64,000 nt of DNA from NCBI GenBank assembly GCA_000182565.2, contig KQ257450.1, one strand, 5' to 3'. This DNA is from Spizellomyces punctatus DAOM BR117 (Eukaryota). A model generated the notes under the pieces. That model was not told the origin of the DNA, did no database searches, and was given only the letters and a program-made list of their open reading frames with translations. A program made the translations under genes and the position numbers. How positions within the stretch are numbered: position 1 is the first letter of the stretch; each line of letters begins with the position of its first letter. Positions 24,740-57,399 of this stretch are shown here, in pieces.

Positions 24740-24811
24740 TGGAGGTTGCGGGGCTCGATCCCGCGGCCTTCCGCATGCAAAGCGGACGATCTACCACTGA
24801 TCTAAACCCCC
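24740..24811 (-). tRNA. tRNA-Ala(UGC), copy 1
   Basis: 72-nt cloverleaf GGGGGTTTAGATCAGTGGTAGATCGTCCGCTTTGCATGCGGAAGGCCGCGGGATCGAGCCCCGCAACCTCCA; anticodon TGC; G3:U70 Ala identity pair; oligo-T downstream. Confidence 0.96.
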
Positions 24812-42974: not shown

Positions 42975-43046
42975 GGGGGTTTAGATCAGTGGTAGATCGT
43001 CCGCTTTGCATGCGGAAGGCCGCGGGATCGAGCCCCGCAACCTCCA
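42975..43046 (+). tRNA. tRNA-Ala(UGC), copy 2
   Basis: Identical 72-nt sequence to copy 1. Confidence 0.96.
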
Positions 43047-46209: not shown

Positions 46210-47649
46210 TCATGCCTGAATTTGACTAGTGCTGGACTCGACCGCTTCCGCCGCTCCCGCCACGAGTGCCTCCCCAATCGTCAGTTTCACCCGCTTTGCC
46301 TTGACTGCTGGTTTCCCGCTCGCGTCTCCCCCGCGTTTCCTCTTGGTCATCTTGGATGCATCTGCTATGGGATCCGGAAGGGGAGTGCGGGGTGTGTAGG
46401 CTGCGGAATGGTGGGGTGGAATGTATGGGCTGTAGTTGACACTAGGATATAGGGCGGGATGGAAGGGAAGGGCCGAGGTGCCAAATGGTGAAAATGACGT
46501 TGTAAAGGGTCCACCGCTGAATGGTGTTGTGGTGCCAAAGTGGTTCGATGTTGGCGGATGAACATACGGGTGCTGGCGCTTGTTACGGACGCGATGGGAT
46601 GGAGGAGAGACGGTGGGGTAAGGCGGAAATGAGCTGGGCATGGGAGGTGGCGGCATTTGAGCCGATGGATGGCGCATTCGGTTGGTGTGAGACGACATTC
46701 TAGGTGTCGATACCGGTGCACTAGAGCTGGATCCGTTGGTTCTATGAACGTCGTCTCCATAGTTACCAACGTCGCGAGCAGCCTCATACCAATTGGTAAT
46801 CATCTGCATGTCCATGACCGTTGGCACTGTGCTGGTGGCGTGACTTTCTTTTTGCGCCTTACGACTCGACGACGCTGCCGGAGCACTGGCATTGGACCCC
46901 GTAGATCCTTCGTCTGGGGATGGGCTAACGGGTTTGGCCGGACAGACAAACTTGATGTAGACGCCCGTGCCCTTGATTCCCTTGCCGCCAGTGTTGAAAT
47001 GAGACGGTAAATGTTGGTATGTTGACGGCAGAGTATCAGCAAAAGGTGAGGCAAACGAGAAAGGAAAGTAGCCGCCGGCAAGTTGAGGACTTTGATACAG
47101 GCCATTGGCCGTTCCATCAGTGTCCAAAGGACTCGGCTCGGCTCGGGCTAAACCCATCTTTTGTATTTCCCGAGTATCCACGGGAATGTTGAACGGATCT
47201 GGTGGTATAATGGATGACAGTGCGGACACGGCTGAAGTTGCTGAAGCAGGATAGTGACGAGAAAATTCATACGTAGGGTCGTATCGTGACCGGCTGCCAG
47301 TGCCTGCACGAGCGCCAACCATCCCTCCAACCAATCCTTTACTCCCTGTAGTCTTTGACTCCAAAATGTTGATCAGGCCAATTTGGCAAATAGCCCCCCA
47401 CGGCGCAATGTACCCGCAGTTGCCAATGTCTTCTCTGGTCCATTTTACATGATTCAGATAGTGATGAAGGGAAGCCACTGCCGGTAAAAAATCTCTCGAT
47501 CCAGCAAGCTCAACAAGGCGCTCAAATGCTTCACAAACGATGGGATCCAGAGGAACCGACAAATCTAGTACCAGGCGAGCAAGATCTTCAATCTCTCGAA
47601 TGTCATGAATGTGACGGGCAGATGAAAAGATTGGTGGCGGCTCAAGCAT
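46210..47649 (-). CDS. Hypothetical protein, probably nuclear (globular N-terminus, Pro/Ser/His-rich middle, C-terminal bipartite NLS)
   Basis: 479-aa intronless ORF with an in-frame stop upstream of the ATG; KRKR-x9-KAKRVK near the C-terminus. Confidence 0.7.
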   Translation of the reverse strand: MLEPPPIFSSARHIHDIREIEDLARLVLDLSVPLDPIVCEAFERLVELAGSRDFLPAVASLHHYLNHVKWTREDIGNCGYIAPWGAICQIGLINILESKTTGSKGLVGGMVGARAGTGSRSRYDPTYEFSRHYPASATSAVSALSSIIPPDPFNIPVDTREIQKMGLARAEPSPLDTDGTANGLYQSPQLAGGYFPFSFASPFADTLPSTYQHLPSHFNTGGKGIKGTGVYIKFVCPAKPVSPSPDEGSTGSNASAPAASSSRKAQKESHATSTVPTVMDMQMITNWYEAARDVGNYGDDVHRTNGSSSSAPVSTPRMSSHTNRMRHPSAQMPPPPMPSSFPPYPTVSPPSHRVRNKRQHPYVHPPTSNHFGTTTPFSGGPFTTSFSPFGTSALPFHPALYPSVNYSPYIPPHHSAAYTPRTPLPDPIADASKMTKRKRGGDASGKPAVKAKRVKLTIGEALVAGAAEAVESSTSQIQA

Positions 47650-48957
47650 TGTTTGGGGGGCGACCTTGTTGTCCGAGAGGGAATGGAATAGAGGTTATGT
47701 CGCGGCTGTTCCGGGTATGTGTTTGCGGGTACCTTGAAAGTTTATACAGGTCTGGTTGGTTAGGACGTTGCTCAATGAGGATCTGAATACGACAGGAAAC
47801 CAATGAATAAGTAAGTTCGACCATAGGCAGAATAATGAGGCGTAAGAGGGCGCCGGTCTGCGGTACCTTTTCAAAAGCTAACAAACAATACTTTCCAAAT
47901 CGTTTCAATGCTGAGGATGGTGGTGCTCTCTGGTCCGAGGAATAGGGGTGTTATATGAAGGGAGCGGTTGCTGTCGAATGTTCTGATTATACTTGGCTCG
48001 TCGAGAAATGTTGAGAAAACACCGTTAAAGGCACAGGTACAAGTTGATAGTTAGGAGAGTTGGGAGCAGTCTCGGAACAATACCCCCAGCGCATGCCACC
48101 CTCGAGTTAAAGAGTGACCCCAAGGAATGAAAAAAGGTGAACAAAACGAGCGCGTAATTATGGGATTCCCAAAATTTCGGCCCATCACTTCCCGTGACAT
48201 TTGGAATAGGGGAGATTGTTTGTATTATCGATATGCTTGTTCAGCTTCCCATGGAATTTTTGCGGGTCTATCGGTATGTACCTTTGAATTGAACAAGGCC
48301 CGCTTCGCGCCGTCATTCAATTTCTGGATTGGGGGTCTGAAGACCTAGACGAGTAGTGAACAGACGCGCGGTTGCTGACATAATCATATTATTGAGTTCG
48401 ATTCCAATGCATTGCATCATGTGATCTTGTTGCTATGACATGTACCCTGAGCTCGTTTGCCAACCCTGATGCGAAATCCCGTTGGGTATCTAAAGCGGCT
48501 CCAACAAGTATTTTGCCGTCATCTTTACTCCAATTTTCCTTACTTCTGAACGAATCCACGTAATTTCTTTACCTGGTTGAATTCGTAAGTCCAGATTTAT
48601 CTAGAGCGAGGGTCAAAAGACGGTCCATCTTGGATTTAATCGCACGCCGCATCTCACCATTTCACTCCGCCTTCAGTTAAACCTTATCGTCCCTCCTTGT
48701 CTAGATTGAGCGAGCATTATTGCAGACGCTGTCTCTTGACTGCTGTCTTTAGGATTATAAGAGGTACGAGTTTGTGTATGACCCGGGTCGTTGTCCATGT
48801 GTGCGAAAACACCTGTTCACCGTTCCCACAAATCTGTGTTTATCAGGCCGTGAAGCTAACATCTGTAACACTGTATCCCTTCTCACAGCATACCACTGAC
48901 CGCCGCATCGTACTCGTATTTCATACACACATACCCATACTACACAATCGTCATACC

Positions 48958-50051: not shown

Positions 50052-51174
50052 CTAATCGTCATCAGAGTCATTGTCCTCTGCCATTAGACCAGCAGCATAT
50101 CCCGTTCCCGTAAATTGCATCAACACTGAAGCTGTTTCATCCGACTTTGCAATGTCGACGGCTGATTTCCCATCATTGTTTCGAATTCGTGTGTCTATTC
50201 CCTCTTGGTCAAGAAGCTGTTGGACAACTTTTGTGTGGCCGCCTTCAAGTGTAAAGGTATAAGTGTCCCGCAAAGTGCCCATCATGCCAAAACCCTGCCG
50301 CAAATCTTACCCCACGCGGCTAGATGCAAAGGCGTATCGCCCAGCTTGTTCTATGTATACAAAATAGACCATTTAATCTTTCACACTCGAGCGGATGGGC
50401 TAGTCAGGAGAGCTCTACCTGAGGATTCAACGCGGGTCGCCTCTGTAATAATAACGCAACGATCTGCGCATGACCTCCACGACAGGCCCAATGAAGAGGT
50501 GTATTTCCAGCTTTATCCAAGCCATTTACGGATACTCCTGCCGAAAGGAGTTCTTGCGTAAATCCGACATTTCCTTTCAAATCGTCAATTTAGGGAATAT
50601 GTTCTTGTTCAATGGCTCCTTTGCATGACTCTATGCTCACCTCGCTTGGCAGCTTCTACATACGCAGATAAAAGTTGCTTTAGCTCTGAGATCTTCAGAA
50701 AACAGCAAAGAGTCTAACCATGTAAAGGATTGTCTATCTCGGCCGTATTTTCTCCAACTGAGACGAAAAATCGTTTGTAAAAGCATTTTTCAAAACAAAC
50801 CCACATGTCCCGATCCAAACTTTTGTACTGTTTTCGTACCATAGTTTCTAGGAACAAACCCTTCTCGCTCGTTACAACGACATTTCCACCAGTGTTCTTC
50901 GTCCTTGTTTAGTACACTTGAAGCAAGCAGAATGAAAAACAATCGTCTCTGTAGAGAATTCTCATCATGAAACGTACAACAAGACATCTCCTTCATTGAA
51001 ACTCAATTCATCTGAACGTTGAGCAGTATAATCGTACAGCGCACGGACGACTTGAATTTCCTTTTTACCTGGCCTAAACCAAAAACATGCATGTAGTTGA
51101 ATCAATTCTGTACAAAGTTCTTTTCTTGTAAATGTGTTTCGTTACCGTGTGGGACGAGGAGGTGGAGCGGCCAT
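50052..51174 (-). CDS. OSTF1: OSTF1-like SH3 plus ankyrin-repeat adaptor
   Basis: Pro-rich N-terminus MAAPPPRPTRPGK, SH3 (VVRALYDYTAQRSDELSFNEGD...WWKC...GFVPRNY), IDNPLHEAAKRGN, ankyrin repeats (LDKAGNTPLHWACRGGH; NKLGDTPLHLAAWGGH) and acidic tail. Confidence 0.9.
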
Positions 51175-51469
51175 GCTGGTAACGACGTCTATAAATCAAT
51201 TTGACAAAACAATCTTTAGGTGGCAGAGGGAAACGGCAAACGCGAATGCAGCCATGTCCACGATGAGTCAGCACGGGGCGATCAAAGAGCTCTGGTATTT
51301 CTGCGCAGCGGTGAATGACATTAGTATTTGGGAGCAAAACACTCTACTGGTCAGCAACAATATCTGGAAAGCCCACATTGTTAAATATTAAATACAGTAG
51401 GGATGCCACTAATTTCAAAAAGAAAATCGCTGTACTCTGCTCACACTCTACATCCCTCCAACAACACTT

Positions 51470-51931
51470 TCACACCCGAATCTCCACCGCAGGCGACTCA
51501 AGCTTCCTCCGAGAATTAAACCTCGAATCCAAAAAAACCTTTGACAAAACCAACGTAACCCCCAAAACAGACTACCCAAAAAAACCAACCGTTAGTAAAC
51601 CATCCCACTATTTCCTAGATCCACCAAAAACACAACCTCACACAGTATCGTCACAAATCCAGCAGTCGCATCAACCAACTTCATGTATATCGCAGTAATG
51701 ATTAACCCAGTGGTAAACATGACTGACCACGCAAGAGAAATGTCCTATAAAACACAATGGAAACCAAACACTAGGATTCAGGGGCTCTAAAAGTGATGGT
51801 AATGCATGTTGCCTTGCCTTGGCAGACCGGTTTTTCCACATTGTGTAGAGTTGTGGTAAAAGGCATATAGCTAGTATGCTACCACCGAGGTATCCCAGCA
51901 CTGTAGTGGCGACGGACGTAGTCCCGTCCAT
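51470..51931 (-). CDS. SemiSWEET-like single PQ-loop (3-TM) transporter, 107 aa
   Basis: Exons 51931-51818, 51744-51637 and 51571-51470 give MDGTTSVATTVLGYLGGSILAICLLPQLYTMWKNRSAK/DISLAWSVMFTTGLIITAIYMKLVDATAGFVTILCE/SVLGVTLVLSKVFLDSRFNSRRKLESPAVEIRV*. Confidence 0.82.
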
Positions 51932-52072
51932 TTTCTATGAGTGGTCCAGCGGAGAATGAAAACTTATTATGCTTGTTGTGGTCGCTGCTCTAAGAAGTGG
52001 TAAAGTGGTTACCATGTTTACGGAGTTATGATATAAGTATGTAGGTTGCATATTGTCTGTCATTTTCTAAAT

Positions 52073-52144
52073 GGGGGTTTAGATCAGTGGTAGATCGTCC
52101 GCTTTGCATGCGGAAGGCCGCGGGATCGAGCCCCGCAACCTCCA
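52073..52144 (+). tRNA. tRNA-Ala(UGC), copy 3
   Basis: Identical 72-nt sequence to copies 1 and 2. Confidence 0.96.
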
Positions 52145-52370
52145 CTAAGCTTTCGTTTGGATAAACTTTTTGCTTTCCGCTCCTACCAAATTATTCTCGT
52201 TGGTTGTGAGACAGATGCATGATAATATGGTTGCTTCCATTTGTATTGCCGGGACACAGATTTTTCTCTCCTTTCCAATAGTTTTCCCCGTTCTTATGCA
52301 AATAAGCCAATCAACAATACGGGCCCGATTCATAACACATCTTATTTCGTTGTGTATATCGTTGTGAATA

Positions 52371-54992
52371 TCAAATACAATCTTCCCTGCCCTGTTCAGA
52401 TTTGCTAATGTTAGGCAATGATGCCAAAATCCGAAAAAACTCGTGGCATCGCTAGACATCACGCAGTGAGTGTGAGACTTGCTTAGTTACAGGCATCAAC
52501 ATGCGCCCAACATACTTGTTGGATTTCCAGGCTTGGCGACTCCTTCAGCGCCTCCACGGTAGAGATTACAACGGGTGGACAGGTTCCAACCCTTTGTACG
52601 AGTTTGTTGATACATTGGAGGACATAGCTTGTAGTGGACAGATCTGTGCCGCGAAGATGTCAAGTATACACATCGCCGTGGAGATTCTCTAGTTCTCACT
52701 CGCTCACCTTCAACTTTTGGTGCATTGAGTAGCCGGCCCATTCTATCTAGAACATCATGCGCTTCTGATGGGACAGTAATAAACTCTGACAGTACCTGGT
52801 CAACCACCAGTTACTTTTATCCCCAGGTAGAAGCAGATACCACAAGGGTTTATAATGATCTTACCCATACGGCAAATTGCAGTAGCGTCACGTCCATCGC
52901 ATCCTTGACCAATATCTCCAAGCATTCCTTGACACTTAATTGCACAGCACCCGCATCTTCTTGTAACAGAACCGCATTCAAGCGACTGATGACAGAGGGT
53001 CGCGCATCCTGGTGCACCGAATGCAATGCTTGAAATAGAATTCTGCAAGTTTCTTCCGATGTCACCGATAATGTAGATAGATCAGAACAGCAAAAAAGTT
53101 AAGGTAATGCACGCTCAAATATGGGTATTGACGTGCAAGGAAAAAAGGATATCGATTGAGAAGGTTAACAAGGGTCTCGCACATCCGAAGCTGAGTACAC
53201 GCATCCCCTGATTTGCGTAGGTGGTCTAACACATGATCGACTATCGAGTGGTAGTCCTCCTTGGTAGCCACCAAGCAAAGGATTTTCAATCCCTAAGCCA
53301 ATCGGAGCACCAAAGTTGGACAATTATATATATCTGTATGCGACAGAAACGGTACATACCATTTGCTCCAGTGAATCATCGCCAGACCGTAAGGATTCTT
53401 CTACCTCAGCTCTAAACCGTGAGAGTATGTCCCCAACGTTCGCACCTACAAGCAGGTATAGCCCCGCAAGTCCGAGATACCGAAGATTACTATTCGCCGA
53501 TTGAAGCAGCCGGGACAGGATTTCCGGCGCGCATCCGAGATGATCGGTAGAAGCCACTGGAGCGACAATGCTCAAAGCCTTAATCCCTCCATAGATAATC
53601 GCTGCATTTGCAAACTGGTCATGAATAGCACTGACAAACTTTTAGAACTGGCGCCCAAATTACCGTACGATGCATCTCCTCCATCTTGGGCATTTTCCAA
53701 GGTGTCAAGAATGACAGGATGAGCTGTCTGAGCTGCCCTGCGCTGTAATAAGCCATCCGTTGCGCATTCACAGCTCGGACACATGCTCTTACTTCATATC
53801 GCAGGCACCTAACGTTCCGATTATCTCAAGACAATCGAGCTGTATCCACGGAGCGGTAACTCCATGGAAGTCATATTGCGTTGCCAGCCGGCCGTTAATC
53901 GCTTGTCGATGGATGTGAATGAACGCCGACAGAAGTGGGAGGTATGCCTTTGTGTCTGTCTACATAAATGGCATCTATGAGAACACAGTCTTAAGCCACT
54001 TGGAGGGATTTCCCGGAACTGACGTTACGGGATTGACACAGCAGGGTCCGGTACGTGGTCAATGCCACACTCATTACACCAGGATCCTGATCTGCTAGGA
54101 CTCGTTTCAATTTGCTAACTGCAACTGCCATCGCGGTTGGATTTATGGTTGAGAATTTGCGTATCACGGCAGCGGCACGCTTTCGCACAAGTGCATTCTG
54201 TATATAGATGGGGGTCTCAAAATAACCGTGCGTTTCGCAAAAAGAAAAGTTAGAATAGGAATCTGTACATGCCTCATGACGAAGACAGCGCAGGACGGGG
54301 GACAACAAAGGGGAAATCATATCGGCGTTGGCTATCCCACATAGAGCTGCTAAGGCAAGAGCTTGTTCATTGATGTTGTCACTATTGAGATCCTGTGAAA
54401 TGTTGAAGCATTCTCACTTTTACTCAACAGCGAGTGTATTCATGTGAAGGGGTACAAACATACCCGTTGCAAAGTGTTTACCATCAACAGGCTGAGTTCA
54501 TGTCGTTCGTGCAAGAACATGGACACGCAGAGATACCCTTCGTCACCACCACAGAAAAATGGCATTACGGTGCTGTGAATAGCACCCTATATAACAGACA
54601 AATGGCCTCACCAACGTGCTTTTCGTAAAGCGATTTTGCGTCGTGCGTCAGCATAATTGCTTTGACATGGGCAAAATCCGCGGTACTGTAACCCATAGTT
54701 TCGCAGAATAGACATCGCAAGAGATACTCTGCTGTACAGCGTACGGCTGTTTCATCTTGGGATGAGAGATTGATTCGCAAGGTCTCCACCTCGGCTTTTA
54801 GAATTTGGCGCTCCTGTTGTTTAGTTTTTGCAAACGCTACGGAATTTAGCAGCCGTCGAAACTCTGGGGTTAACTGACTATTTTGCCATGTATCTCGCTC
54901 TCTGTTTGAAGAGAGGGTACAGCTTGAGCACACAAGAGAATATATCAGACTGGAACAACGTTTGCTTGTTACCGCTGTGGTGATGGCTCCAT
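52371..54992 (-). CDS. AP4E1: Adaptor complex AP-4 epsilon subunit (trunk domain only)
   Basis: EYLLRCLFCETMGYS..FAHVKAIML....LYEKHVGYLCVSMFLHERHELSLLMVNTLQRDL; LVRKRAA; YDFHGVTAPWIQLDCL; SANSNLRYLGL; terminal SLEIQQRCHEF then stop. Start codon is approximate. Confidence 0.82.
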
Positions 54993-55220
54993 GACGGGCG
55001 AAAGCCATCACCCAACGACATGCAACAAGAGTGACGCGCGCTGATGAGTTCACGTGAAACGTCCAGATGGTCGGACTTCTTCCTTCACTGTCTACTGTCT
55101 CACGTATGTCAGATTAACATACGAAATCGTGTGTGGAGTGATCTCTGTAGGAGTTTAACGGGGACGAAGTGGACGTCTGCTGGGTTGCAATATATTCCAC
55201 GCGAGAGCGTACTTTCTTCA

Positions 55221-57399
55221 ATGGAGGATTCACGCCATAATGTACACACCACACTTGCCGAGGCTCTCTCCCAAGAACTCGGTGAGAACATGCAAGACGG
55301 CCGGCAATCAGACGTGAGCTCGCGTAGTTTATGCAAATCATATGCTATGTGTGTGGGCTCACCTTTTGTTTAGATAATTACTTTAGTTTCCCGTCTACCT
55401 GAATCGGCAGATACTAACAAAAGTTCCTACCGTCCCTCTTCCCCGTCTCCGAGAGCTGTACGATCAGCTTCTTCCCCTTTTACGCCTTTAACAAACATCT
55501 TGTCAAACACATTCTCCAACCGACACGACTCTTCCCCATTTTCTACTGTCGGAAAGTCCTTAAAGTCACGGGTGGAGAGACAATCGCCATTCCAGAAGGA
55601 AAATGACTTATATGTAAAGACTGCTCTTGAGGCCGCCGATAGGAATGTCGTTATCGTGGCATCGTCGCCTGGTACCGCAACCAGGATTCAGTCGTCTTCC
55701 CGAGGAGAGGAGTCTCCTTTACCACAGCACTCGGACAATTCCGGGCGCAACGTTTCCAATGAAAATGCTGATAACTCTTATCCGACATCTCCGCTAATAC
55801 ACACAGACGTACCGGATGGTAGCAATTTGATGGACGATGATGGGAGACGTACTTCTCTCGATGTTTTCTCCAAATCAAATCCCAGCACTATTTCAAGAGA
55901 AGGGAAGGAGTTATCTGGCCAAGGGTCGGACGGACTTATGGGGGACATAACAATAGATTCGAATGGCGACAGTGCCCATAAGCGAGGCGATCCCGAGCAA
56001 TCGCAATCGTCAACACTCCTAAACATCACCGCCCTCCCTCCTTCACAGGAATCTGTTGCTATGCCGGATCTGCACCCCGGTGCTTTAGTAGATACGGCGG
56101 CTGCAATCCCGCAACCAGGAGAAGGACATAACGGTCGTGCCGAACACCGATTTAATCTGCAAGCGGAGTTCTCCAACCTTCAGTACCCACGCAGTATCCA
56201 CTCCAATTTTGAATTCCATCCGAAAATGACTCCAGTCAAGACATCCCTCAACCCAATTGCCATTGCCGAGTTTGATCCTTTGAAGCCGCCTGGTCCGAAC
56301 GACTGGTTTATGAGGTTCGAGAGCCCACAAGCTGCCATACAGGCGGCATCACCAGGCCCTCGCACGCCGGTTGGGCAGAGTCGACATCAACCGCAACTCA
56401 TCAGTCCTCCACCATCGCTGTTGGATTCCATAATCGAGTGCCCCACTCCCTCTAGTATGCCAAAGTATACTGAGAAAGATATGGAGGATGCGAGACGGAC
56501 ATTGCTGGCAAAGGTAAGTTTAATGGTAGACAAAAGAGCAAGCATTTTGACATCATGGAATGCCGACTTTTGTCTCGCTGTCTTCAGTTCCAGCAAGAAT
56601 ATGAAATAGTGAAGTCGGAGATTTGCGATCTGGAACAAAGGCACGCAGCTGGTCAGGAAGAAAATGAAAGTATGAAGATGGCATTGAACGAATGGGATTC
56701 TATCATGCAGAGAATGCTAAGTATGTTCGGTTCGCTGCGTTGATGTATCGTCGTAATTTTACTACAAATCGCTTTGGCTAACTTGCGTTTCAACGTTCCG
56801 TGGTTTCATTAGCGGACAAGCAAAAGAAAGAAGGACAGCTGAATTTGGAAGTTGAGAAACTGGAAACCCAGGTCGAAGCGATGCGAAACGACAAGAAACG
56901 CTTGCAAGAAGACAATGATTATTTAGAGCACAAATGGAAGCAGACCCGCATGAATTATGATGATTTAAAAGAGGTAAGGACACCAGTTTTCATCTCAACG
57001 TCAGTTATGGAGCCTGAATTGCTATTCCTCAGTCCGGAGCAAAGTTGACGGACCAGATTGAGTCACTCAAAAGGGATTTAAGCGCGGCGGACACTCGATT
57101 TGAGGCTCTAAAAGGACATGCCGAACAAAAATTGGAAGAGTAAGTTTACTTTCCGCGATCTATATGGCCATTCGCTCATTTTCAAGTGTTAACCGCGCCA
57201 CCTCAGAGCAAGCAATGAGCTATCACGCGTGCAGTTGGCGTACGAGAAGGAGGTGTCTGCCCTCAAGGCGAAATTATCCAGAGCAGAGATTCAAATAAGC
57301 ACGTTGGAGCGAACAGTGGAAAGCAAGACGCAGGAAAACCAGGAGCTCACGAAAATATGCGACTCTCTGGTCGCACAGCTGGAAGAGAGGGGTAGTTGA
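55221..57399 (+). CDS. TACC: TACC-domain (transforming acidic coiled-coil) protein
   Basis: Disordered Ser/Pro-rich N-terminus; KYTEKDME; C-terminal RFEALKGHAEQKLEEASNEL...LERTVESKTQENQELTKICDSLV (TACC_C signature). Confidence 0.88.

What the first reader, a model, noticed from the sequence alone, without database searches (positions are those of the whole stretch)
51470..51931. Spliced nuclear gene encoding a bacterial-style half-size (3-TM) SemiSWEET/PQ-loop transporter
Seen: three exons give a 107-aa protein with one PQ motif (GYLGGSILAICLLPQLYTMWKNRSAKDISL), three hydrophobic helices and then a stop. There is no room for a second repeat: OSTF1 starts about 300 bp downstream and a tRNA lies about 140 bp upstream. 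Known: eukaryotic SWEET and PQ-loop transporters are normally 7-TM fusions of two such units, while single 3-TM units (SemiSWEETs) are typical of prokaryotes and work as homodimers; the PQ...KSAKDIS pattern is the SemiSWEET signature. Inference: this is either an intronised horizontally acquired SemiSWEET or a retained ancestral half-transporter, and possibly a little-described fungal sugar or solute transport system.
Basis: partly seen in the sequence, partly recalled or inferred. Interest (0 to 1): 0.78.

Follow-up and report, generated by a model that had tools for sequence, protein, structure and literature searches.

The report
Chytrid half-size transporter, altered binding pocket
This chytrid fungus has a real, expressed gene for a three-helix 'half' transporter of a type known mainly from bacteria, but it and its relatives in other chytrids, a rotifer and a giant virus lack the two sugar-binding residues and carry an acidic residue in the membrane instead, so its cargo is probably not sugar.

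Summary
Three exons (- strand, 51931-51470) give 107 aa with one PQ-loop unit. RNA reads show intron 2 spliced and a poly(A) site 107 nt after the stop, leaving no room for a second unit downstream. Intron 1 is GC-AG; it rests on homology (best of 120 options), not on reads. The gene is not a one-off import. It has end-to-end single-unit relatives in Batrachochytrium, Entophlyctis, a rotifer and a giant virus. All 20 clade members examined lack the SemiSWEET Trp/Asn sugar pair and carry Glu (18) or Gln (2) in helix 3. The nearest prokaryotic relatives sampled are Glu-bearing proteins of small-genome archaea and one small-genome bacterium. Best reading: a dimeric SemiSWEET-fold carrier, inherited within chytrids, for a non-sugar, probably cationic or proton-coupled solute. 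Dimer, location and substrate are inferred. I found no paper on this subfamily (10 searches), but a 'putative fungal SemiSWEET' was reported in 2016 in a paper I could not read. The scan had no look-alike on other DNA.

The parts
51818..51931 (-). Exon 1 coding part (38 aa): helix 1 with GYxGG, Cys23 and the PQ hinge (Pro26-Gln27)
   Evidence: PF04193 22.6 bits; collinear with homologues
51745..51817 (-). Intron 1, 73 nt, GC-AG, phase 0
   Evidence: best of 120 options against a homologue-only profile; not seen in the reads shown
51637..51744 (-). Exon 2 (36 aa): helix 2 (Thr55 at the SemiSWEET Trp position, Tyr58 kept) and first half of helix 3 up to Glu74
51572..51636 (-). Intron 2, 65 nt, GT-AG, with a TACTAAC branch site
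   Evidence: 12 + 12 RNA reads in run X5; best of 419 options
51470..51571 (-). Exon 3 coding part (33 aa + TGA): end of helix 3 with conserved Lys85, basic cytosolic tail
51363..51469 (-). 3' UTR (107 nt) ending at the poly(A) site at 51363
   Evidence: 10 reads with a non-templated tail; no genomic A-run
52073..52145 (+). tRNA-Ala(TGC), 141 nt upstream on the opposite strand (neighbour)
50052..51174 (-). Downstream neighbour: spliced SH3 + ankyrin gene (OSTF1-like, name recalled), separate transcript
   Evidence: Pfam; own introns and own 3' read pile; ATG at 51174
52300..55113 (-). Upstream neighbour beyond the tRNA: adaptin large-subunit gene (approximate limits)
   Evidence: Adaptin_N; introns at 52451-52516 and 52643-52708, 3' read pile near 52323-52423

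Best explanation
The gene encodes a stand-alone triple-helix-bundle (SemiSWEET-fold, PQ-loop) carrier of a little-noticed subfamily that is shared by chytrids, other microbial eukaryotes, a rotifer and a giant virus, and is inherited vertically within chytrids. Two copies pair to make one six-helix pore that alternates access by kinking at the PQ hinge. The pocket is rebuilt: the Thr/Trp/Asn set that binds sugar in SemiSWEETs has become Leu/Thr/Ile, and a Cys23-Tyr48-Glu74 set lines the cytosolic half. The dimer would hold two Glu near the axis, which fits a small cationic or amine-bearing solute (basic amino acid, polyamine, thiamine- or choline-like) or proton coupling rather than hexose or sucrose uniport. 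Shown: gene structure, expression, single unit, family membership, residue changes. Inferred: dimer, pore-facing Glu, substrate class, location in the secretory, vacuolar or plasma membrane.
For: Gene and transcript end. No other unit-like frame between 48.5 and 55 kb. Homologues of 98-134 aa align end to end with the three exons without a gap at either junction; named ones are Batrachochytrium EGF81318.1, Entophlyctis KAI8925310.1 and KAI8925336.1, and the rotifer Didymodactylos carnosus; P0056 lies on a 624-kb viral contig. Tree of 61 rows: query in a starred 9-row group with the three named chytrid proteins (96/90), inside a starred 21-row clade (98/94). Gap-free profile match to solved SemiSWEETs, which are dimers with a PQ hinge (PMC4309421, passages and the gates section read). 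In 20 clade rows: Trp50-equivalent 0 of 20, Asn66-equivalent 0 of 20, Arg57 0 of 20, Asp59 0 of 20, Glu or Gln at 74 in 20 of 20, Cys23 18, Tyr48 14, PQ 19. In 32 prokaryotic rows: Trp 32, Asn 27, Glu 1. N66A lowers sucrose uptake in EcSemiSWEET. Glu74 is the only acidic residue in the three membrane spans. A model of homologue P0027 has three helices, 6-34, 42-61, 65-89. Gene GC 0.472 equals the window's 0.471.
Against: No transport data. That Glu74 faces the pore is inferred only from its place three residues after the Asn66 position. Two named chytrid members have Gln there (Batrachochytrium, one Entophlyctis copy), and the query has Phe rather than Tyr at 48, so the charge is not universal. 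W50A raised sucrose uptake in EcSemiSWEET, so loss of Trp alone does not exclude sugar. Several Plasmodiophora PQ-loop proteins were reported to rescue hexose-null yeast (PMC9099952, passages). The grouping with named chytrids was starred only; it was 93/87 and unresolved, on 86-88 columns. Most clade members are unnamed, so the taxonomic range is only partly known. Neighbourhoods of 5 archaeal Glu-type loci and 1 bacterial one share no gene that points to a substrate.
Confidence: 0.52

Rival explanations
1. A working sugar uniporter: a eukaryotic SemiSWEET homodimer that binds sugar through a different polar set (Thr55, Tyr58, Thr70, Glu74).
For: Nearest solved relatives are SemiSWEETs; PQ and the Tyr53 equivalent are kept; Trp is dispensable for sucrose in EcSemiSWEET; no MtN3_slv SWEET was found in this genome, though that search can miss intron-split genes (one search missed this very gene).
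Against: Asn66 equivalent absent in 20 of 20 and the Arg/Asp outer gate absent in 20 of 20; Trp and Asn are described as highly conserved across SemiSWEETs and SWEETs.
Confidence: 0.2
2. One subunit of a heterodimer, in the manner of the mitochondrial pyruvate carrier, pairing with a paralogue or another small membrane protein.
For: Entophlyctis has two copies, one with Glu and one with Gln at 74, both recorded on a contig of 122,361 bases. MPC shows that eukaryotes use paired three-helix units (PMC12007569, passages).
Against: Only this locus was found in the genome with exon 1 and with P0027 as queries (weak for intron-split genes). MPC loci lie elsewhere, on C6 and C2. Prokaryotic relatives are single genes without a neighbouring partner.
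Confidence: 0.1
3. A non-transporting membrane protein built on the fold (receptor, cargo adaptor or scramblase), as with the KDEL receptor or MPDU1.
For: The PQ-loop family includes such proteins (PMC7561476, passages); the pocket and outer gate residues are replaced; one member (P0011) carries a 285-aa soluble tail.
Against: Hinge Pro-Gln and the loop Ser are kept in 19-20 of 20; related proteins occur in prokaryotes with no secretory pathway.
Confidence: 0.1
4. A recent bacterial gene taken up by this lineage and then intronised.
For: Single-unit architecture is typical of prokaryotes; intron-rich xenologues are reported in chytrids (PMC11291939, passages).
Against: Eukaryotic relatives score 69-85 bits against at most 53 for any prokaryotic protein examined; shared with two other chytrid genera; host-like GC; no PQ-loop term or the Batrachochytrium accession in that paper's two supplements.
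Confidence: 0.04
5. One half of a split or mis-read seven-helix PQ-loop gene.
For: A TAG three bases before the ATG could act as a splice acceptor, and 5' read depth is low.
Against: Poly(A) 107 nt after the stop; near-zero same-strand depth at 52020-52221 and no bridging joint; no second unit within 48.5-55 kb; homologues start and end at the same places; halves of the genome's two-repeat proteins score at most 15 bits.
Confidence: 0.03

Closest known systems
Prokaryotic SemiSWEETs (TySemiSWEET 4rng, BjSemiSWEET 9kax, LbSemiSWEET 4qnc, EcSemiSWEET 4x5m)
   Same: One three-helix unit, PQ hinge, loop Ser and outer Tyr; gap-free profile alignment, E 3.8e-15 to 3.3e-6.
   Different: Nuclear gene with two introns; Thr15, Trp50, Asn66, Arg57 and Asp59 equivalents replaced; Glu in helix 3; basic C-terminal tail.
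Seven-helix PQ-loop proteins (PQLC2/Ypq, cystinosin, MPDU1, KDEL receptor)
   Same: PF04193 match; cystinosin is a weak profile hit (E 0.025); several carry amino acids or use protons.
   Different: They have two units in one chain. This genome's other PQ-loop loci mostly show paired matches or two PQ exons and score 1.5-15 bits against the query.
Mitochondrial pyruvate carrier MPC1/MPC2
   Same: Eukaryotic three-helix unit that must pair.
   Different: No PF03650 match for any exon; separate MPC loci exist; MPC has N-terminal amphipathic helices and no sequence similarity to SemiSWEETs.
Reported eukaryotic 'SemiSWEETs' (Jia et al. 2017, PMC5742349; Hu et al. 2016 as cited there)
   Same: Short, 3-4-helix SWEET-family entries in fungi and other eukaryotes are mentioned, including one putative fungal SemiSWEET.
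   Different: Jia's data set has no Spizellomyces entry and not BATDEDRAFT_87572; its short fungal entry that I saw (Rozella A0A075B3D7, 139 aa) keeps Trp and Asn and reads like a partial SWEET (by eye). Which protein Hu et al. meant I could not check.
Giant-virus single PQ-loop proteins annotated as semiSWEET
   Same: Single unit with GYxGG; 9 viral loci matched; one Glu-type member on a 624-kb viral contig; such genes are listed in two preprints (passages).
   Different: The six viral rows examined carry Gln23 (5)/Asn48/Ser74 instead of Cys/Tyr/Glu; none is characterised in the passages seen.

Membership tests
PQ-loop family (PF04193) | Score at or above the curated cut-off; Pro-Gln at the end of helix 1 | tested here: met
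   Exon 1: 22.6 bits, cut-off 22; 7 of 7 homologues 22.6-46.2 bits
SemiSWEET sugar transporters | Single three-helix unit of about 85-110 aa | tested here: met
   three helices in the model of homologue P0027
SemiSWEET sugar transporters | PQ hinge (Pro21-Gln22 in E. coli) | tested here: met
   Pro26-Gln27; 19 and 20 of 20 clade rows
SemiSWEET sugar transporters | Trp50/Asn66 substrate pair | tested here: not met
   Thr55 and Ile71; 0 of 20 for each
SemiSWEET sugar transporters | Outer gate Tyr53-Arg57-Asp59 | tested here: not met
   Tyr kept in 18 of 20, Arg 0 of 20, Asp 0 of 20; many prokaryotic rows also lack the Arg, so this feature is weak
SemiSWEET sugar transporters | NCBIfam SemiSWEET_2 (NF037968) cut-off of 80 bits | tested here: inconclusive
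   Only single exons were scanned: exon 1 gave 15.4 bits
SemiSWEET sugar transporters | 1-3-2 triple-helix-bundle fold | tested here: inconclusive
   Model of P0027: 4rng ranks first but at E 0.7, TM 0.32-0.40
SemiSWEET sugar transporters | Parallel homodimer | not testable with these tools
   Needs cross-linking, native MS or a structure
SemiSWEET sugar transporters | Sugar uniport | not testable with these tools
   Needs an uptake assay
SWEET and other seven-helix PQ-loop proteins | Two units joined by helix 4 in one chain | tested here: not met
   Stop at 107 aa, poly(A) at 51363, no second unit nearby
Mitochondrial pyruvate carrier | PF03650 match and N-terminal amphipathic helices | tested here: not met
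   No PF03650 hit for the exons; helix 1 starts at residue 6 in the homologue model; MPC loci elsewhere

The most novel reading that the evidence does not exclude
Eukaryotes have a second family of stand-alone three-helix carriers besides MPC: an undescribed, Glu-type PQ-loop subfamily that links small-genome archaea and bacteria, giant viruses, chytrids, algae-like unnamed eukaryotes and rotifers, works as a homodimer, and moves cationic metabolites or protons. It would be a living model of the unfused ancestor of amino-acid-carrying PQ-loop transporters.
Probability: 0.35. Interest if true: 0.78.

Novelty: new variant of a known kind. Interest (0 to 1): 0.58.

Why it matters
Reviews describe three-helix PQ-loop units as prokaryotic and seven-helix fusions as eukaryotic. 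Short eukaryotic entries have been listed, but without transcript proof in the passages I saw. This locus gives RNA support for a complete single-unit gene, and its relatives define a clade with its own pocket signature. At 107 residues, in a soil fungus, it is a simple test case for what SemiSWEET-fold proteins carry when the sugar pair is missing, and for how PQ-loop proteins moved from sugars to amino acids and protons.

Tried and rejected
Word-based protein search with exon 1 found nothing; the 50%-representative search and a profile found the relatives. None of the three returned this gene's own product, so it may be missing from public annotation; not established. Of 18 hits, 6 were repeat proteins matched by chance and dropped. 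A search of 318-2000-aa proteins for fusions found none (weak, and 236-317 aa was never searched). I suspected from memory that the tail of P0011 is a decayed S-adenosylmethionine decarboxylase, which would have tied the family to polyamines: no Pfam or PDB hit, 2.3 bits against a 5-sequence profile while at least 15 of 2000 shuffles scored higher, model pLDDT under 50, no viral relative. Not used as evidence. Homodimer prediction for P0027 residues 1-95: no answer, score 0.08. Fold searches with the monomer model were uninformative: weak SemiSWEET ranks and generic helical bundles only. Pattern scans: none in prokaryotic genomes or viruses for the closest motif; the metagenome scan gave 6 distant phage-like loci that keep Asn. 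No match among plasmids or phages. Atlas: PQ-loop clusters, Actinomycetota by features at 0.92, a lead only. Runs X1-X3 gave short unspliced contigs only; no RNA holder was listed by the index. Own-genome family searches can miss intron-split genes (one search missed this one), so 'no SWEET' and 'no paralogue' are weak. The test that all Glu-type rows form one clade neither rejected nor showed it (p-AU 0.231). Paper searches found no description of this subfamily; the library lacks most subscription papers, and Hu et al. 2016 was not held. bioRxiv supplements were closed, so the SemiSWEET tree in the ChrysoHV preprint was not seen.

Full report
Setting. The window is C1:434001-498000 of a 24,131,112-base assembly in 38 contigs, GC 0.471. 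Earlier notes of this scan name it as the chytrid Spizellomyces punctatus; that fits my recollection of the assembly size, but I did not test it.

The gene. On the - strand, exons 51931-51818, 51744-51637 and 51571-51470 give 107 aa. Exon 1 alone scores 22.6 bits on PF04193 (cut-off 22). In RNA run X5, 12 reads break off at 51573 and 12 at 51637, each going on with the other exon's letters, so intron 2 is 51636-51572; 10 reads carry a poly(A) tail at 51363, where the DNA has no A-run. Depth near the 3' end is 44.7, against 119.8 and 27.1 for the two neighbours. Intron 1 is a 73-nt GC-AG intron. The reads shown do not cover it (depth 3-5), but it is the best of 120 options against a profile of 18 homologues that excludes the query (123.9 bits; best GT option 93.2; unspliced 52.6), and intron 2 is the best of 419. 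No other unit-like frame lies between 48.5 and 55 kb. A tRNA-Ala sits 141 nt upstream and the SH3/ankyrin gene starts 295 nt after the stop. One loose end: a TAG three bases before the ATG could be an acceptor; same-strand depth at 52020-52221 is 0-0.12 and no joint bridges it.

Relatives. Exon 1 found 18 representatives, 12 of them PQ-loop proteins; a profile found 53 proteins among 2043 candidates. The best align with the three exons end to end, with no gap at either junction. Named ones are Batrachochytrium dendrobatidis EGF81318.1 (117 aa), Entophlyctis helioformis KAI8925310.1 and KAI8925336.1 (120, 112 aa) and the rotifer Didymodactylos carnosus (124-134 aa). P0056 lies on a 624-kb viral contig beside an XPG-type nuclease and a mitochondrial carrier. 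Most others are unnamed; several read out of frame after helix 2 or mid helix 3, as intron-containing genes would (my reading). In a 61-row tree (6 chance hits and 15 fragments or near-duplicates left out) the query falls in a starred 9-row group with the three chytrid proteins (96/90), inside a starred 21-row clade (98/94). Two later trees keep a starred eukaryotic core (96; 97/91) but resolve the chytrid grouping less well. The query scores 69-85 bits against nine clade members, 33-59 against five more distant ones, 17-42 against 18 prokaryotic rows and 1.5-15 against four halves of this genome's own two-repeat proteins, which were cut from unspliced frames. A recent import into this lineage, or a split seven-helix gene, is therefore unlikely.

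Prokaryotic side. I profiled three phylum samples: 33 of 401, 72 of 301 (E <= 1e-8) and 20 of 301 (E <= 1e-13) genomes matched (the first tally includes one genome marked unpublished, whose sequence I did not use). Only top loci were read. Of 32 rows, 32 keep Trp, 27 keep Asn and one (L044, a 0.9-Mb bacterial genome) has Glu at 74. Of the top 12 loci from a phylum of small-genome archaea, 5 have Glu at 74 and no Asn, and score 44-53 bits against the query (one Trp/Asn row scores 49); a sixth Glu-type copy is in L116. In the tree these Glu-type prokaryotic proteins sit between ordinary SemiSWEETs and the eukaryote-plus-virus group, without starred support (84/85, 88/86), and a single Glu-type clade is neither shown nor rejected (p-AU 0.231). 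Their neighbourhoods share nothing. Large bacterial phyla were not profiled, so no donor can be named; ancient transfer and ancient retention remain open.

The pocket. The family profile aligns without gaps to solved SemiSWEETs (4rng, E 3.8e-15), which fixes an offset of 5 to EcSemiSWEET. There, Pro21 is the hinge, Trp50 and Asn66 line the sugar site with Thr15 behind Trp50, Tyr53/Arg57/Asp59 form the outer gate and Phe43 is part of the inner gate; N66A lowers sucrose uptake, W50A raises it (PMC4309421: abstract, passages, gates section). In 20 clade rows: PQ 19 and 20, Tyr53 equivalent 18, Trp 0, Asn 0, Thr15 equivalent 0, Arg 0, Asp 0; position 74 is Glu in 18 and Gln in 2, position 23 Cys in 18, position 48 Tyr in 14. 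Six giant-virus rows have Asn48 and Ser74, five of them Gln23. So positions 23, 48 and 74 change as a set between groups. In the query Glu74 is the only acidic residue in the membrane spans, and loop 1 and the tail are basic, which fits the SemiSWEET topology.

How it most likely works. Shown: an expressed single-unit PQ-loop gene with a clade-wide rebuilt pocket. From known SemiSWEET structures: three helices cannot enclose a pore, so two units pair and switch access at the PQ kink. Inferred: Glu74, one turn from the Asn position towards the cytosol, faces the pore, giving the dimer two carboxylates; this suits a cationic or amine-bearing solute or proton coupling, as in the amino-acid-carrying PQ-loop proteins cystinosin and PQLC2 (PMC7561476, passages). 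I put this at about 0.5. Sugar uniport by another polar set (0.2), a heterodimer (0.1) and a non-transport role (0.1) are live. Against my reading: Gln in two chytrid members, Phe48 in the query, and reports of sugar uptake by Plasmodiophora PQ-loop proteins (PMC9099952, passages).

What is known. Jia et al. 2017 (PMC5742349; passages, a supplement search and one part of the data set) state that 3-4-helix entries occur in fungi and other eukaryotes and cite one putative fungal SemiSWEET from Hu et al. 2016, which I could not read. Their set has no Spizellomyces entry and only two Batrachochytrium entries, neither this orthologue; the short Rozella entry keeps Trp and Asn (by eye). Two algal single-unit candidates are flagged as possibly partial (PMC9520054, passages). 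Giant-virus 'semiSWEET' genes are listed in two preprints (passages). A survey of gene transfer into early-diverging fungi shows no PQ-loop term in text or two supplements (PMC11291939). I also read the first part of PMC5972207 and passages of PMC12007569. Ten paper searches found no description of this subfamily.

Verdict. Real gene; member of the PQ-loop family; built like a SemiSWEET but failing its substrate-pair test, so not filed as a SemiSWEET sugar transporter. New variant of a known kind. Interest 0.58: the database entries exist and short eukaryotic forms have been mentioned, but a transcript-supported single-unit eukaryotic clade with its own pocket signature is surprising and easy to test.

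Noticed in passing
window 24740-24811 (-), 42975-43046 (+), 52073-52145 (+): Three near-identical tRNA-Ala(TGC) genes within 28 kb, with unrelated flanks.
   Followed up: no
window 51817-51745 (-): Intron 1 uses a GC donor; this may be why the product was not retrieved from the protein collections.
   Followed up: partly
P0011 residues about 150-245: A close relative (53% identity over 78 columns) has a 285-aa tail with two short stretches that recall S-adenosylmethionine decarboxylase; not significant.
   Followed up: yes
L029:4001-5394: A 624-kb viral contig carries a Glu-type member tail to tail with a mitochondrial carrier gene.
   Followed up: partly
L031, L033-L037: Giant-virus contigs encode a sister group of single PQ-loop proteins with Gln23/Asn48/Ser74 and no Trp/Asn pair.
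   Followed up: partly
L104-L108, L116, L044: Glu-type SemiSWEET-like proteins of 84-93 aa in small-genome archaea and one small-genome bacterium; G845 has two copies, one between an amino-acid permease and a Na/H exchanger.
   Followed up: partly
P0016, P0022, P0023: The bdelloid rotifer Didymodactylos carnosus has members of this clade, possibly a gene acquired from a fungus or alga.
   Followed up: no
P0014 and P0027: Entophlyctis has two copies, one with Gln and one with Glu at position 74, both on a contig of 122,361 bases.
   Followed up: no
L023-L028: Large phage-like contigs carry a SemiSWEET-like gene just after a deoxycytidylate-deaminase-like gene (name recalled).
   Followed up: no
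window 46213-47694 (-) and 55377-56606 (+): Long open frames (494 and 410 aa) with no Pfam match at E <= 0.1.
   Followed up: no
G000 whole genome: No MtN3_slv SWEET match, although Batrachochytrium has SWEETs; the search can miss intron-split genes.
   Followed up: partly
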